Source: Isurus oxyrinchus (lineage: Eukaryota). From it: a DNA stretch of 64,000 bases. The position numbers were made by a program. The DNA lies in contig JANJGN010000041.1 of assembly GCA_026770705.1 (NCBI GenBank), positions 4,216,001 to 4,280,000 of the forward strand, written 5' to 3'. Positions 30,001-42,000 of this stretch are shown one piece after another. Each line of letters opens with the position of its first letter. Within the stretch, counting starts at the first letter, position 1.

Positions 30001-33000
30001 GATGGCGAGAAGGACATTGATGAGGGAGCTAAACATCGTTAAACCTCGGAAACGACCCTGATGAACTCCGGTTCCCTGAGGAAATAAAAGGACTGGGAGC
30101 TGAACAGTCTGGGTGTATATTTAGAAAGTGCAGGTGCCGATAGGCCAGAGCAAACATTTTGAAAAGAGTGCTAGCTGAGCCGGCAGTGTGGGCAATTAAT
30201 ATTTCAGGCCCTAAGCAGACAGGGCAAAGATATCAGAAACACTGTAGCTGCTCGAAAAGACGGATCATGTATGTTTTGCCAAAAGAGGAATTAAATATTG
30301 ACAATAAATGCTTTTCTTGCGAGCTTTGCCCCTCATGCCATCACTGAAACTGTCTTGCTTTTAGGGTTCAGTTCTTGAAGGACAGTGGTTGTATTTTTTC
30401 TATTTAATGCATCTTTAATTGGCAGTTTTACTGGCCAATCATTTTAACGGGTGATTAGGGTGGTTATTTAGTAATGATCAAGACGATTTTGGAGTTGTAT
30501 CTGAGAAAAGCGAATGACCCAGGTAACAGGGAGAACCCGGAGGAGTGGCTGCCGGCTGCATCTTCCTAAAGATGTACAATAAGGAAAGGATGGGTCAATT
30601 GGTCTGCTTCTGTGCTGAGGCCCGTCTATGGTTGCATTCTACGAACGGCATTTTAGTTAAGTACATGATAAGAATACACAATGAAAAGAATTGCAAAACA
30701 AATTTTCACATTTTATATGCGTAGGTATACAAAGAAGGAAGTTGACGGTAGGTGGATGTGTGATCAGACGTTTCTTGGCTGGGACATCGTGCTGATATTT
30801 GGCTGAACTGTCACTCACTATATTGATGAATGATATCAAGATAAACATGTTAAAATAATCGGGAATTATGACAACAGCCATTTGGTGGCTGTGTGTGTGA
30901 AAGGACAAGTTAACATGAAACAGATAGTTTTGTGAAGGAGCATTCGTGGAGTAAGTAGCCCCGTTAATCGTGAAAACTTAGGTAGGACCTATCTGCGCCT
31001 TCAAATGAATTGCAGATAAATCGAATTTAGAATATTTGAATCCAAGATATGGAGCCAGCTCGCAGCCCGATGGATCATGGGAATGAGTGATCAATTCCAT
31101 CAATACCCGTCCTTTCACAAAACACGTGAGCACCTGGCCTTCCTTGTTGAAATCATGTGAGGTTTATGGAACTCTGAGAAGCAGCTTATTGTGCAACAGT
31201 CCCATATTTGGAGGGTGCCAGACTTAATGAAACATGTTATGAAAATTCCCCCTGGGTACCATTTGCTCCACAGGAGACGTTGTAGGAAATTTGTGACGTT
31301 TGTCTATGTTACATTTGTCGAGTTAACATGATACAATTGGTGATGTTTGGGGTGTTCTATTGTCGATCAGAACAAATGTTCCAATGAACACAAGGCTGTC
31401 AGACTCTGGCATCACCATTCACCCTTTCAAACACTGCAACGCTAACCGTGGCTGCTCAGTAATTTTATCATTATTTGTATTATTATTATCACAACTTACA
31501 ATTCACCATTGATTACATTATACTGTGAAAATGAGTTCAATTTGACATTATATAATAAAAGAGCATTTTAGTAGGATATATTATCCAGAGTGCTTAAACG
31601 TTGTTTCAAGCATTTTGCAAACATGATTTCTTTCAGGGCACACCGTTTTTGTCCCCCTGTAAAGGTCAGTGGGTTTTCAGCAGTAATTTGCCAAATTTTA
31701 GGCACAGTTTCACAAGGTACTGCATTCCACTCTTCAGCTCCTCCCTAAACCTAGCTTGTGTCAGCACATAAATGAATGTATTTGTGCAGGAGCTGAGGGA
31801 CCCAAGCATGAATCCAATTGACTCAAGCTCATTTGTGCCAGAATTCGATGTGATTTTTACATGCAGAGAGATAAAATATATAACCGATGTGGTCCAGAGC
31901 ACTATAAAGCTGCCAGTAATACTGAAGAGTAAAATAATGGACTTTCTTCGGCTTTCTATTTCAGAGTCCTTCTGATGTTCTCCATTGATGCAACCACGGA
32001 GACCCCTGCGAACTTTACTAGCCACCAAAATATGTCTTGCCGTCAAAACATTTAGTGACAAAATTAGAAAGAATGGAACACCTGGGGTCAAGGTAAGGGT
32101 AAACAAGGCAAATGCGGCCCATTCAGCAGAAATGAAAAATGTCTGTTTTAGTAAACAACCATGATTTACATTGTCCATTATATATGCAGGTTCATATGCA
32201 AAGTACCAGGGAATGTTTATCAAACAACTCAGTACACTCACCACTGATATGACAGCTACCGCTGTTGTCTCCGTGCAATATTTTTTTCGCAGCTTCTTAC
32301 AACATATGACCACAAAACGATCGAAGGTGAACACGACTGTTAACCAGAAAGAGGCTGATATTGCTACATTAATCAGTGTCACAGTTAGATAGCACACCGT
32401 GCTCGTGGTCAAGAATGAAACAGGGAAATAAATATTCAGCGTATTCTTCAGCATGACTTCAGCACAAACAACCAGGAGATCCATCGCGGACATGGCAATC
32501 ATATAGTGGGTAATACATTTGGAGAGGCCACATTTTCCTCGGGAAAGAATCACAATCGTAACAACATTAACTGTAAGAGAGGGATAGAGAGTGCAGGAGG
32601 TTGATGGCACAGATGAACATGATTAATTTTCTTCCTGTTGCAGCAAGGAATCTTGCATTTGACCCAAATATGCAGAGTTTGCATTTCGAGGCGAGCATGT
32701 TCTAAATGTAAACTGGACCTAGTGAAAGTGTATAGGGAAGAGAAACATCAGTTTATATTTTATCTTTTGATAGGAACATCTTCAACATAAACCTGCCAAC
32801 TGTTGTAGAGAAAAGGATTGAGATTGCTGAATGCAAATGGGAACTGGACAATTTGAAAGCACACAAGTGGCTGGGCATGGTGAATATTGTAGGGTAAATG
32901 GGAGGTGTAAAGATTGAATTCATGTGTGCTGTTACAATGGGAAGTGGCAAATGAATGCACAAAATAGAATCTGGGCCAAGTAGAGTTATACTCTGGAAGA

Positions 33001-39000: not shown

Positions 39001-42000
39001 CCTCCTGGTGACCACCTCCCGTTATCCTGAGCGGATGAAACAATGATCATTAATGGCCGACGTTTTGGGGAGTGACAAGAAAAAAAAAGTGCTTTACGTC
39101 GGGGACCTCGATGTCTGTGAGCAAGAGAGGATCAGTAGCACCACTAATGGCCGAGCTGGCAGACTCATAACGATAAATGCTAGATTGGGTCTTTGGCAGG
39201 TGGTCATGGAAACCACTAGGTGCAAAAACGTAATTGAATTCGCTCTACACATGTTCATGTATCCATTCAGTGATTTATAGTGCAAACGAATTCTGCCTTC
39301 ATATTGGGGCTTCCATCCATCGTGTTGTGTGAGACAACCATTGTGATAAATGGGGTGGGTTTCATCTTGATCAAGAAATCAAAAGTGTGCATTCACGATG
39401 CACTGTGGACCATTAGCTGCAGCTGATTTGTGCACAACCATAATTTCTAACCCCATTGCTGTGGTAATAAGTATGTGATTTGAGAGGCATTAAGATCCGT
39501 TAAAAATTGGAAAATGGATCAAAACCATTAGCAAAGACTTCAAGTATTTCAGGCGGAATTTTGCAGAATGCGAATTTGCCTCTCTGGAGATTTTCACAGA
39601 TTGGTTTGCACTTATGATAATTATTCCTGAACCCCACCTGCTAAAAGACATTCCGTGAAGCATGAATAAGGTGTCAGTTGTGGATATCACGGAGTGAAAG
39701 ACATAGCAACATGAAGGTTTCTGTTAACTTTATGGTTAAACATACCTCCCTGCTTTGATGACTCCCAACAGTAAAGAAACAATTTCATGTTATCAGACCT
39801 GACGGTTGAGAAAAACGTGAACATTCATTTAAATGTGTAATGATTGTATTTAGGCTCTTACCAGGAACACCAATAGCCGCGAGAACAGGATAGTAAATAG
39901 CTTCTATCTGGCGAAGAATCAGTTCTCCCATCTTTATGAGGAGATGCCTTTCCTGCAGAGATGGATGCACAAGACGGAATGAACGTGTCAGCTAAAACGT
40001 AGAAAACCTGTATTTAAAAAATTCACTTCAGGAAAGTAGGAGAAATACGTTAAAATCACAGGAGGTTCGGAAGGAGGTGCCACATTATTTAATCTGGAGC
40101 ACCAGGGTAAAACAGGCACGACAGCATTCGTAGCAGTGAACAGAAAAAAGCTGTTAGCTTTGGTTAACATGATGCACTTTAGTTAACTAATGGAACACCC
40201 GGCCGCTACGATCTAGAAAGATAAAGGCAGCATGAACATGGGAAAGCCACTAGCTGAACGTTCCACTCAAAGCCACTCATTGCCCTGGATCAGTACAGAA
40301 AAATATCGCCGTTCCTTCACTGTCTCTGTGTCAAATGAATGGAGCACCACCCTCCCCCACCCCGCTAACAATACGGTGAATGTAACTACACCACAAAGAC
40401 CGCAGCAGCTCACCACCCATTTCACAAGGCGAATTAGAGGAAGAAAAAAATGCTGGTATTGCCAGCCTTGCCTCATCCATCAATTGAAAGGACGGAAATT
40501 TATATTGTTAGTCCCAGAGCATTTTCATAAACGTACGTTGGAAAACAATGAGCTACAGCAAATTATATCCTCGCTGAGAAGCGCTAACTCCTGTAGAAGC
40601 AGACACACCGAGCCTGTTGGAAAACATGAAATGTGGCAATCAGAGAAGCTGTTATGTAGAAAGCAGATAAATCCCCATGAGCGCATTCATGTCCCCTAAA
40701 GAAATCAATTAGTTTCAGTCATTGAACAAACAGGTTACATCAGTCATTCTCCTTCTGAAAGGAACCGTTTCGAAGTGAAACGGCTAACATTGGAATGATG
40801 TGTGTGGTCTATACAATTAAAGGGTCTATATTTTAACAAGCAACGGGTTGATCCAATAGTGCATATTCACGGCGGGAAATGAATGACCCACAGAGGGATG
40901 TTGGGCATGAAATTGTTACTAATTTAGATCAAAATGATTCGTGGAAACTCAATCGGCCTGAACCACCAGGACAAGAAGTTGGAAAATTTCAGATGTTCAC
41001 CACTGATTTGTGCTTCGGGACACATTATATTTTCCAACAGGGCACATGACTGAAGTCTGTCTTTGTCATTTAATCTTCCAGAGGGAACTCATACGCTGCC
41101 CAGATCTTTCCGTGGATTCGTCTGGGAATGACATTTCTGTCAGTGACTTGACCTACATTCTGTGTCGTTGCACATAACTTTGCACCATTTTGCCTGGAAA
41201 TTATAAGCGCAACTGTAGGACCTGGAAGGTTGATTATGGTGGTGACCTGATGTGCAATAGAAAGTGTACAGAGAAGGCTTTTGTTTTCTCACCTGATATA
41301 TTTCAAAGTAAAGCGTTCAAGACAATCCGACCTGATTCACCCTCAGTACTGATTCCCCACGCCAAGCAATCCTCCTGCTCACCCACTCACATACTCCATC
41401 CAGAATGAACTGAATGAAAAACAATTGTTTGAATAAAATAATAGGATATCTAGAGTACGTCGCTGGAAGGGTATTCCACGCTAAACATTAAACTCTTGGC
41501 CCTTAAATTTCTTCTGCAGACCCTCATTAGCAGATGGATGCACTGATTATGATGAATCCGAATCGATGGCACCTCCGACTTTGGTGTGGGTTGCATTTCA
41601 AACAAGCACCAAAAACAGAATAGTTAAATTCAGTAGGTCATTCGGCCCCTTGAGCCTGTTCTGCAAATCGGAAGGCTCACGGTTTATCTGATCGGTGCCT
41701 CAGCCCCGCTGTCCTGTCTGTGTTCCCCCAACCAGCGCCGTACACCGGCCCCCTCCGCCATCTCTCTTGCAACACACACTTATATCCTCATGACCCTATT
41801 CTCCCTGATTGGTCAATAAGCTATCCAACTCAGCCTTCAATATGCGACAGCCCTAAACAGATGATCAGTGTCATTTGCTCTTTGGTGATGGCGTCATAAT
41901 CAGAACGATGCAAAATGGCTCGTTTGTGTGAACCTATTTCCTGTTTACTTGTGGCGCTGAATAAGGCTTTTTAATGGCTCCAGCACTGTTTGTCATATTT

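What the first reader, a model, noticed from the sequence alone, without database searches (positions are those of the whole stretch)
31666..39931. Intact, divergent GPR139/142-related orphan receptor: candidate member of a cartilaginous-fish chemosensory-type expansion
Seen: 324-aa 7TM protein with a very short N-terminus lacking N-glycosylation sites, a Cys-containing ICL1 (SRGKCGLSKC), DRF, a TM6 without the canonical proline (FIVLWTT), a short ECL3, TM7 NTFIY, and one phase-1 intron inside TM1. It is the only intact ORF among decayed repeats, which implies purifying selection. Established: mammalian GPR139/GPR142 sense aromatic amino acids. Recalled, not verified here: shark and ray genomes carry many automatically annotated 'GPR139-like' paralogues of this type and few classical olfactory receptors. 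Inference: part of a lineage-specific, functionally undescribed amino-acid/peptide-sensing receptor repertoire rather than the true GPR139 orthologue.
Basis: partly seen in the sequence, partly recalled or inferred. Interest (0 to 1): 0.7.

Follow-up and report, generated by a model that had tools for sequence, protein, structure and literature searches.

The report
Orphan GPR139-like receptor gene
This is a real two-exon gene for a divergent orphan cell-surface receptor that is only distantly like GPR139; it is an ordinary find, and its proposed smell or taste role is untested.

Summary
On the minus strand, a 70-nt first exon (39931-39862) and a 902-nt coding part of a second exon (32570-31669, stop 31668-31666) give a 324-codon model. 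That figure is arithmetic; the exons were never joined. The second-exon frame (318 codons) is the longest in the window; 0 of 200 shuffles reach it. It matches Pfam 7tm_1 at E=1.9e-18.

The nearest Atlas clusters are auto-named "probable GPR139". Among solved structures, though, the prolactin-releasing-peptide receptor (1.8e-9) scores slightly above GPR139 (4.1e-8), both at about 24-26% identity. Only 1 of 6 GPR139 agonist-pocket residues is kept. It is therefore not the GPR139 orthologue, and it probably does not sense aromatic amino acids the way GPR139 does.

Best reading: a probably functional orphan class-A receptor with an unknown ligand and unusual T6.50 and T7.50 residues. It is a new member of a known kind, of modest interest.

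The parts
39862..39931 (-). Proposed coding exon 1. ATG at 39931, then 23 codons plus one base. It encodes a very short extracellular N-terminus and the first half of TM1.
   Evidence: Read directly. It is the first ATG after an in-frame stop and is followed by the donor G|GTAAGA. It is the best of 540 phase-1 ATG..GT candidates; only 2 of the 540 pass donor >=6/9 plus hydrophobic tail >=1.0. There is no homologue or transcript support (searches found nothing).
32571..39861 (-). Phase-1 intron of 7291 nt, running GT..AG and lying inside TM1, one codon before N1.50.
   Evidence: Donor seen. Acceptor with a pyrimidine tract and CAG seen. It is the only AG within the open 5' part of the exon-2 frame. 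No stretch of the intron repeats elsewhere in the window. The 144-aa plus-strand frame 37734-38168 inside it has no Pfam or PDB match.
31669..32570 (-). Coding part of exon 2. It encodes the second half of TM1 through TM7, helix 8 and a short C-terminal tail (300 codons plus 2 bases of the split codon).
   Evidence: Pfam 7tm_1 at E=1.9e-18 and 1.6e-18, covering profile positions 2-260 of 260. PDB hits to class-A receptors. Longest frame in the window. T is 41% of second codon positions, as expected for a membrane protein.
31666..31668 (-). Stop codon.
   Evidence: End of the frame listed.
30414..30419 (-). First poly(A)-signal-like hexamer downstream of the stop. It would give a 3' UTR of about 1.25 kb. 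This is inference only.
   Evidence: Pattern scan. There is no transcript evidence.

Best explanation
The locus is a real, probably functional two-coding-exon gene for an orphan class-A (rhodopsin-type) G-protein-coupled receptor.

Relationships. It belongs to the loose group of chordate receptors that annotation pipelines name 'probable GPR139'. It is not the orthologue of GPR139 or GPR142.

Inferred mechanism.
- The receptor sits in the plasma membrane with almost no N-terminus (about 5-8 residues) and no N-glycan. Its ligand must therefore be bound by the helix bundle and extracellular loop 2 (ECL2).
- ECL2 is tied to TM3 by the canonical C3.25-ECL2 disulfide. This protein keeps that pair; GPR139 lacks it in the alignment.
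- The signal passes through the W6.48 toggle, D2.50, DRF and N7.49/Y7.53 to a heterotrimeric G protein.
- The ligand is unknown. I think a small peptide or metabolite is most likely.
- It is probably not recognised in the GPR139 way, because five of the six pocket residues shown or modelled to bind aromatic amino acids in GPR139 are replaced.
- Threonine replaces both kink prolines (P6.50 and P7.50). This predicts altered activation mechanics, for example changed basal activity.

Shown: the gene structure, the fold class and the motifs. Inferred: function, ligand class and coupling.
For: - Frame length beyond chance: 318 codons, 0 of 200 shuffles reach it.
- Pfam 7tm_1 scores 67.3 bits against a cut-off of 30.5, covering the whole profile.
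- 15 PDB sequences match at E<=1e-3, and all are class-A receptors. Best hits: PrRP receptor 1.8e-9, GPR139 4.1e-8, GPR52 6.5e-7, CCK-A 5.2e-6.
- In the alignments, N1.50, D2.50, C3.25, DRF, the ECL2 Cys, P5.50, W6.48, N7.49, Y7.53 and the helix-8 RFR are all in place.
- Atlas: the three clusters shown with the automatic name 'probable G-protein coupled receptor 139' score 0.97 (215 of 256 features shared; 328 aa, 82 members), 0.96 (217 of 256; 325 aa, 71 members) and 0.95 (210 of 256; 360 aa, 91 members). Chordata is the commonest phylum.
- Clean splice sites and start context.
- GPR139 also has two exons, and its large exon was first found alone (PMC7318219, passages).
- Not the orthologue: 72 of 279 residues identical, against 70% human-zebrafish.
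- Pocket mapping: F109, H187, W241, R244, N271 and E108 (PMC5430874, abstract and passages) correspond here to N68, A155, W226, S229, F254 and I67. Only W6.48 is kept (my mapping of the alignment).
Against: - No transcript, orthologue or paralogue was seen, so expression and constraint are unproven.
- Exon 1 rests on sequence logic alone (empty).
- Loss of both P6.50 and P7.50 is unusual and could mean a relaxed or dead receptor.
- An open frame alone is compatible with up to about 5% neutral divergence.
- The single-sequence AlphaFold model was useless (mean pLDDT 39.6), so there is no structural support.
- The best PDB hit is not GPR139.
- Atlas names are automatic and the Atlas gives no alignment.
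Confidence: 0.7

Rival explanations
1. One reading: this is one member of a large, lineage-specific (cartilaginous-fish) expansion of GPR139-like receptors that act as chemosensory receptors for amino acids or peptides.
For: - Three Atlas clusters named 'probable GPR139' hold 82, 71 and 91 members. The group therefore has more members than a single pair of orthologue sets would give.
- Extra GPR139/142-related clades (GPR210A/B) exist in coelacanth, gar and teleosts (PMC6504862, passage read).
- The short unglycosylated N-terminus and mostly single-exon coding are common in chemoreceptors (general knowledge).
Against: - No second copy or fragment is in the 64-kb window at tblastn E<=10; the only other hit is a 23-aa chance match at E=3.4. 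Chemoreceptor expansions are usually tandem arrays.
- There is no Pfam match to odorant-receptor models. Only 7tm_1 matches, plus Srsx at E=0.11, below its cut-off.
- The 50 most specific 'brain & olfactory epithelium' genes of the catshark include no GPCR (PMC11979771, passage).
- 0 papers hold 'GPR139-like'. The 4 papers with GPR139 plus shark were seen as listings only, except PMC8514136, whose single 'shark' hit was an author name.
- The organism was not identified.
- The GPR139 amino-acid pocket is not kept.
Confidence: 0.12
2. The locus is a non-functional relic: a receptor gene that recently lost constraint, or an unprocessed duplicate, whose frame happens still to be open.
For: - Both helix-kink prolines (P6.50, P7.50) are replaced by T, and W4.50 is absent.
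- There is no glycosylation sequon.
- The frame survives 2% neutral divergence in 50% of trials and 5% in 19%.
- No expression evidence is available.
Against: - All other microswitches and both disulfide cysteines are intact.
- Both splice sites, the start context and the stop are clean.
- GPR139, a working receptor, also lacks P7.50 and W4.50 in the same alignment.
- The frame survives 10% divergence in only 3.6% of trials and 20% in 0.05%, before counting indels.
Confidence: 0.12
3. It is a neuropeptide receptor of the PrRP/NPY/CCK type rather than of the GPR139 lineage, and the automatic GPR139 name is a best-hit artefact.
For: - The top PDB hit is the prolactin-releasing-peptide receptor (40.7 bits, 1.8e-9), above GPR139 (36.2 bits). 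CCK-A and CCK-B receptors also match.
- It keeps the C3.25-ECL2 disulfide as peptide receptors do, unlike GPR139 in the alignment.
Against: - The score difference is small: 4.5 bits, at about 24% against 26% identity.
- The GPR139 alignment starts at TM1 and shares the TM1, TM2 and TM3 motifs, L6.47, the missing P7.50 and the helix-8 RFR.
- The nearest Atlas clusters are named GPR139.
- The very short N-terminus is atypical for PrRP/NPY/CCK receptors (general knowledge).
Confidence: 0.1
4. It is the true GPR139 or GPR142 orthologue of this species.
For: Two coding exons, as in GPR139 (PMC7318219). Atlas names.
Against: - About 26% identity to human GPR139, against 70% human-zebrafish (PMC7318219).
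- 1 of 6 pocket residues kept.
- GPR139 is not the best PDB hit.
- Different disulfide status and P6.50 status.
Confidence: 0.02

Closest known systems
Human GPR139 (PDB 7VUG and others), with its paralogue GPR142
   Same: - Class-A fold.
- Similar TM1 (N-x-x-T-x-x-I-L-S), TM2 (Y..A..A.D.LV) and TM3 (S.W.TV..T.DR-aromatic) motifs.
- L at 6.47 and W at 6.48.
- No proline at 7.50 (NFFLY there, NTFIY here).
- RFR in helix 8, and no W4.50.
All of these are from the alignment.
- Two-exon gene (PMC7318219).
   Different: - Only 72 of 279 residues are identical.
- The pocket residues F109, H187, R244, N271 and E108 are replaced by N, A, S, F and I.
- T replaces P6.50.
- This protein has the C3.25-ECL2 cysteine pair that GPR139 lacks in the alignment.
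- The N-terminus is far shorter.
- Whether the intron sits at the same place was not testable.
Prolactin-releasing-peptide receptor (PDB 8ZPS)
   Same: - Best-scoring solved structure (E=1.8e-9).
- Shared D2.50, C3.25, DR-aromatic, the ECL2 region, W6.48, N7.49..Y7.53 and the helix-8 FREEL.
   Different: - About 24% identity (63 of 264, my count).
- The PrRP receptor has canonical CWLP and NPFIY.
- The alignment starts only at TM2.
GPR210A / GPR210B, extra GPR139/142-related orphan clades of coelacanth, gar and teleosts (PMC6504862)
   Same: Non-tetrapod orphan receptors filed beside GPR139/GPR142. This is the published category that most plausibly holds this gene.
   Different: That survey had no cartilaginous fish (0 occurrences of 'shark' in the text). 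Only the passage was read.
Protostome MIP/allatostatin-B (sex-peptide), FMRFamide, myosuppressin and proctolin receptors
   Same: They are reported as the sister group of deuterostome GPR139/142 and are activated by peptides with aromatic amidated C-termini (PMC8557429, PMC8514136, passages). Some Atlas neighbours carry the Srw family model: 16% of the members of one of the clusters named 'probable GPR139' and 74% of the members of an arthropod cluster.
   Different: This protein has no Pfam Srw match even at E<=10. The relationship is second-hand, through GPR139.

Membership tests
Class-A (rhodopsin-type) GPCR, Pfam PF00001 | Profile match above the curated cut-off over the whole 7TM core | tested here: met
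   67.3 bits against a cut-off of 30.5, profile positions 2-260 of 260. Repeated on the exact exon-2 product at 67.6 bits.
Class-A (rhodopsin-type) GPCR, Pfam PF00001 | Seven hydrophobic helices | tested here: inconclusive
   The Kyte-Doolittle scan (window 19, threshold 1.4) gives five blocks in exon 2, corresponding to TM2-TM6. TM7 is seen only by alignment.
Class-A (rhodopsin-type) GPCR, Pfam PF00001 | Microswitch residues N1.50, D2.50, D/E-R-Y, CWxP, NPxxY | tested here: inconclusive
   N1.50, D2.50, DRF, W6.48, N7.49 and Y7.53 are present. P6.50 and P7.50 are both T, and C6.47 is L (alignments).
GPR139/GPR142 proper (orthologue) | High conservation: human against zebrafish GPR139 is 70% identical (PMC7318219) | tested here: not met
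   72 of 279 aligned residues are identical to human GPR139 (about 26%; my count of the alignment).
GPR139/GPR142 proper (orthologue) | Agonist pocket F109, H187, W241, R244, N271 (and E108) (PMC5430874) | tested here: not met
   Here the residues are N68, A155, W226, S229, F254 and I67 in exon-2 numbering, so 1 of 6 is kept. The mapping is anchored on DR-aromatic, P5.50, W6.48 and N7.49.
GPR139/GPR142 proper (orthologue) | GPR139 is the best hit among characterised receptors | tested here: not met
   Among solved structures, the PrRP receptor (1.8e-9) ranks above GPR139 (4.1e-8). GPR142 does not appear in the list, and no wider protein set was open.
GPR139/GPR142 proper (orthologue) | Two coding exons, with the intron at the same site and phase | tested here: inconclusive
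   There are two coding exons here, and two exons are reported for GPR139 (PMC7318219). The position and phase of the GPR139 intron were not found in any text I read.
GPR139/GPR142 proper (orthologue) | Conserved neighbourhood (synteny) | not testable with these tools
   No other gene was recognised in the window, and no eukaryote genome collection was open.
'GPR139-like' chordate orphan receptors (automatic names; GPR210A/B of PMC6504862) | Nearest neighbours are such proteins | tested here: met
   The three Atlas clusters shown with the name 'probable GPR139' score 0.97, 0.96 and 0.95 and share 215, 217 and 210 of 256 features. This rests on language-model features only, with no alignment.
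'GPR139-like' chordate orphan receptors (automatic names; GPR210A/B of PMC6504862) | Falls inside the clade in a phylogeny | not testable with these tools
Vertebrate chemosensory receptor repertoires (OR, TAAR, ORA/V1R and the like) | Many paralogues, usually in tandem arrays | tested here: not met
   There are 0 further copies or fragments in the 64-kb window (tblastn E<=10). The genome-wide count was not testable.
Vertebrate chemosensory receptor repertoires (OR, TAAR, ORA/V1R and the like) | Profile match to a chemoreceptor family | tested here: not met
   Only 7tm_1 matches. Srsx at E=0.11 (12.3 bits against a cut-off of 24.1) is below threshold, and there is no 7tm_4 match.
Vertebrate chemosensory receptor repertoires (OR, TAAR, ORA/V1R and the like) | Expression in sensory neurons or sensory cells | not testable with these tools
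   No expression data were available. No paper links this group to shark senses.

The most novel reading that the evidence does not exclude
The gene is one member of a fast-evolving, so far undescribed repertoire of GPR139-like receptors. That repertoire supplies chemosensory (olfactory, gustatory or solitary-cell) detection of peptides or metabolites in a lineage with very few classical odorant receptors. The family-wide T6.50/T7.50 pair marks a distinct activation mechanism.
Probability: 0.1. Interest if true: 0.65.

Novelty: new member of a known kind. Interest (0 to 1): 0.3.

Why it matters
As it stands, this is one more orphan rhodopsin-class receptor of a type that annotation pipelines already label 'probable GPR139'.

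It would matter in two cases.
- The group might prove to be a large, sensory-expressed repertoire in a lineage poor in odorant receptors. That would add a vertebrate chemoreceptor family.
- The paired loss of the TM6 and TM7 kink prolines might prove conserved and compatible with signalling. That would be a natural test case for class-A activation mechanics.

The pocket comparison also warns against carrying the ligand assignment 'aromatic amino-acid sensor' from GPR139 to proteins that merely bear its name.

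Tried and rejected
- AlphaFold2 on the exon-2 product alone gave mean pLDDT 39.6 and pTM 0.26. It is too poor for a fold search, so fold search was not run, and the second structure job was not spent because no homologue alignment could be built.
- The exon-1 peptide (23 aa) found 0 hits in PDB at E<=10 and 0 Pfam families.
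- Rfam at gathering thresholds found 0 matches in the window.
- Pfam on 10 other large frames found 0 families above cut-off. The single sub-threshold match (amylase domain, E=0.019, 15.8 bits against a cut-off of 27) is noise.
A frame-wide scan for decayed transposon genes or short exons of neighbouring genes therefore stayed undone.
- PDB searches with the intronic frame 37734-38168 found 0 hits. With frame 60364-60816 there was one chance hit at E=0.18.
- Self-BLAST found no interspersed repeat touching 28000-44000.
- Literature: 'GPR139-like' plus shark gave 0 papers. 'GPR139-like' alone gave 0. GPR139 plus shark gave 4, none on shark receptors as far as the listing and one check show. GPR139 plus 'olfactory epithelium' plus fish gave 4, none relevant by title or abstract. 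'GPCR repertoire' plus 'elephant shark' gave 5, none relevant by title or abstract.
- The bacterial and archaeal genome collection and the phage, plasmid and E. coli collections were not searched, because they cannot hold relatives of a vertebrate receptor.
- The spliced protein was not assembled, translated or searched. Each exon was handled on its own.
- Supplements of the papers were closed. The catshark expression tables (PMC11979771) may hold data on such receptors that I could not see.

Full report
**What is in the sequence**

The frame 31666..32622 on the minus strand is open for 318 codons. It is the longest frame in the 64-kb window. The next longest is 196 codons, and 0 of 200 shuffles in 1-kb blocks reach 318 (maximum 259, mean 171).

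The frame has no ATG before the first transmembrane helix (TM1), so a single-exon gene would lack TM1. Its only AG upstream of the TM1 asparagine is at 32572-32571, behind a pyrimidine tract. This fixes the start of exon 2 at 32570.

- Its ATG has A at -3 and G at +4.
- It is the first ATG after an in-frame stop.
- It covers 23 codons plus one base and is followed by G|GTAAGA.

I listed all 540 phase-1 ATG..GT stretches upstream on that strand. Only 2 of them combine a donor score of at least 6 of 9 with a hydrophobic tail.

The model is therefore 23 + 1 + 300 = 324 codons with a 7291-nt phase-1 intron in TM1. I obtained this count by arithmetic. Exon 1 found nothing on its own, so it rests on sequence logic only.

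**What kind of protein it is**

Exon 2 matches Pfam 7tm_1 over the whole profile (E=1.9e-18, 67.3 bits against a cut-off of 30.5). Even at E<=10, only a sub-threshold Srsx match is added.

Against all PDB chains, 15 distinct sequences match at E<=1e-3, and all are class-A receptors:

| PDB hit | E-value |
|---|---|
| Prolactin-releasing-peptide (PrRP) receptor | 1.8e-9 |
| GPR139 | 4.1e-8 |
| GPR52 | 6.5e-7 |
| CCK-A receptor | 5.2e-6 |

The remaining matches, including further chains of GPR52 and the CCK-A receptor, the CCK-B receptor and 5-HT2B, are weaker.

My count of the printed alignments gives 72 identical residues of 279 for GPR139 and 63 of 264 for the PrRP receptor.

The alignments place these residues (exon-2 numbering):
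- N1.50 at residue 2
- D2.50 at 31
- C3.25 at 60
- DRF at 84-86
- the extracellular loop 2 (ECL2) cysteine at 139
- P5.50 at 163
- L-W-T-T at 225-228
- N-T-F-I-Y at 264-268
- RFR in helix 8

T228 really sits in the P6.50 column of both CWLP (PrRP receptor) and LWAP (GPR139). P7.50 is also T. GPR139 has F there, so a missing P7.50 is a shared trait. There is no N-X-S/T sequon anywhere in the two exon products.

**Is it GPR139-related?**

For:
- The Atlas neighbours with the highest scores are clusters auto-named 'probable G-protein coupled receptor 139'. The three shown score 0.97, 0.96 and 0.95, are 328, 325 and 360 aa long and hold 82, 71 and 91 members. Chordata is the commonest phylum.
- The TM1, TM2 and TM3 motifs, L6.47, the missing P7.50 and W4.50, and the helix-8 RFR resemble GPR139.
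- GPR139 is a two-exon gene whose large exon was first found alone (PMC7318219, passages read).

Against:
- GPR139 is not the best solved-structure hit.
- Identity is about 26%, while human and zebrafish GPR139 share 70% (PMC7318219).
- Mutagenesis and modelling assign six residues to agonist and aromatic amino-acid binding: F109, H187, W241, R244, N271 and E108 (PMC5430874, abstract and passages). Here they correspond to N, A, W, S, F and I. Only the universal W6.48 is kept.
- This protein has the C3.25-ECL2 cysteine pair that GPR139 lacks in the alignment.
- It lacks P6.50, which GPR139 has.

I conclude that it is not the GPR139 or GPR142 orthologue. It is at most a distant member of the wider GPR139-like group. 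A 2019 survey already split extra clades beside GPR139/142 in coelacanth, gar and teleosts, naming them GPR210A/B (PMC6504862, passage read).

**The expansion and chemosensory claims**

- tblastn of the exon-2 product against the window finds only itself plus one 23-aa chance match at E=3.4. There is therefore no tandem paralogue within about 31 kb on one side and 24 kb on the other.
- No tool here names the organism, so 'cartilaginous fish' stays unverified.
- Catshark papers confirm the small classical repertoires: 2 OR genes, 6 OR-like, 3 ORA, 3 TAAR and 2 TARL. They also report no GPCR among the 50 most specific 'brain & olfactory epithelium' genes (PMC11979771, passages). Their supplements were closed.
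- No paper in the library holds 'GPR139-like'.
- The four papers with GPR139 and 'shark' do not treat shark receptors, as far as the listing and one check show.

The claim is neither refuted nor supported. I put it at about 0.1.

**Selection**

4.0% of single substitutions in exon 2 give a stop (108 of 2709). With substitutions alone, the frame stays open as follows:

| Neutral divergence | Trials with the frame still open |
|---|---|
| 2% | 50% |
| 5% | 19% |
| 10% | 3.6% |
| 20% | 0.05% |

Intactness therefore argues for constraint or for youth. It is not proof of purifying selection.

**Surroundings**

- None of 10 other large frames (chosen from the 31 of >=130 aa, several of which run through N stretches or simple sequence) reaches a Pfam cut-off.
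- There are no Rfam matches.
- Tandem arrays lie at 7815-10800 and 63081-63803.
- Old local duplications (67-79% identity) lie at 14.5-20.7 kb.
- One frame, 60361-60816, has an Atlas lead to an integrase SH3_Tf2-1 cluster (rank 19, score 0.92). It has no Pfam or PDB support.

'Decayed repeats' is therefore plausible but only thinly shown. No neighbouring gene was recognised for synteny.

**Mechanism**

Shown: a class-A receptor gene with intact core switches.

Inferred:
- Ligand binding is within the helix bundle and ECL2, because there is almost no N-terminus.
- Coupling to G proteins goes through DRF and N7.49/Y7.53.
- The ligand differs from that of GPR139.
- TM6 and TM7 mechanics are altered by T6.50 and T7.50.

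The single-sequence AlphaFold model (mean pLDDT 39.6) gave no help, so no fold search was run.

**Verdict**

This is a new member of a known kind, of modest interest (0.3).

Noticed in passing
window 7815-10800: A satellite-like tandem array with a 56-bp period and about 54 copies (62% matches). It contains a better-kept higher-order unit of 111 bp and 222 bp at 8557-9017 (93% and 84% matches). The open frames on both strands at 8519-8978 are by-products of the repeat.
   Followed up: no
window 63081-63803: A tandem array with a 51-bp period, 14 copies and 72% matches. The Cys/Gly-rich 130-aa frame at 63055-63447 lies inside it.
   Followed up: no
window 14504-20687: A block of old local duplications, with 8 segment pairs of 84-903 bp at 67-79% identity.
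   Followed up: no
window 44010-44817: Two N stretches (44010-44476 and 44587-44817) flank a (GATA)n microsatellite at 44477-44586. They were left as they are. Just beside them, 44819-45011 is an inverted 71% match to 23829-24021, the only interspersed repeat pair found.
   Followed up: no
window 60361-60816, minus strand: A 151-aa open frame. Its Atlas neighbours are unnamed eukaryote clusters (0.95), and at rank 19 (0.92) there is an 'integrase catalytic domain' cluster in which 61% of members carry SH3_Tf2-1. It is possibly the tail of a Ty3/gypsy-type integrase. There is no Pfam or PDB support.
   Followed up: partly
window 37734-38168, plus strand (inside the intron): A 144-aa open frame antisense to the receptor gene. 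By eye (recalled motif, not a test), a short stretch looks like the start of a retroelement reverse transcriptase. Pfam and PDB found nothing.
   Followed up: partly
window 4911-5396, plus strand: The first 45 or so residues of this 161-aa frame resemble, from memory only, the C-terminal tail of vertebrate LINE ORF2 proteins. There is no Pfam match.
   Followed up: partly
window 48029-48619, plus strand: The second-longest frame in the window (196 aa) contains a run of prolines and looks like low-complexity sequence, not a gene.
   Followed up: no
window 31669-32570 and 39862-39931, minus strand: The whole receptor, not only its N-terminus, lacks any N-X-S/T sequon. It has threonine at both 6.50 and 7.50. 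Whether relatives share these traits is unknown.
   Followed up: partly
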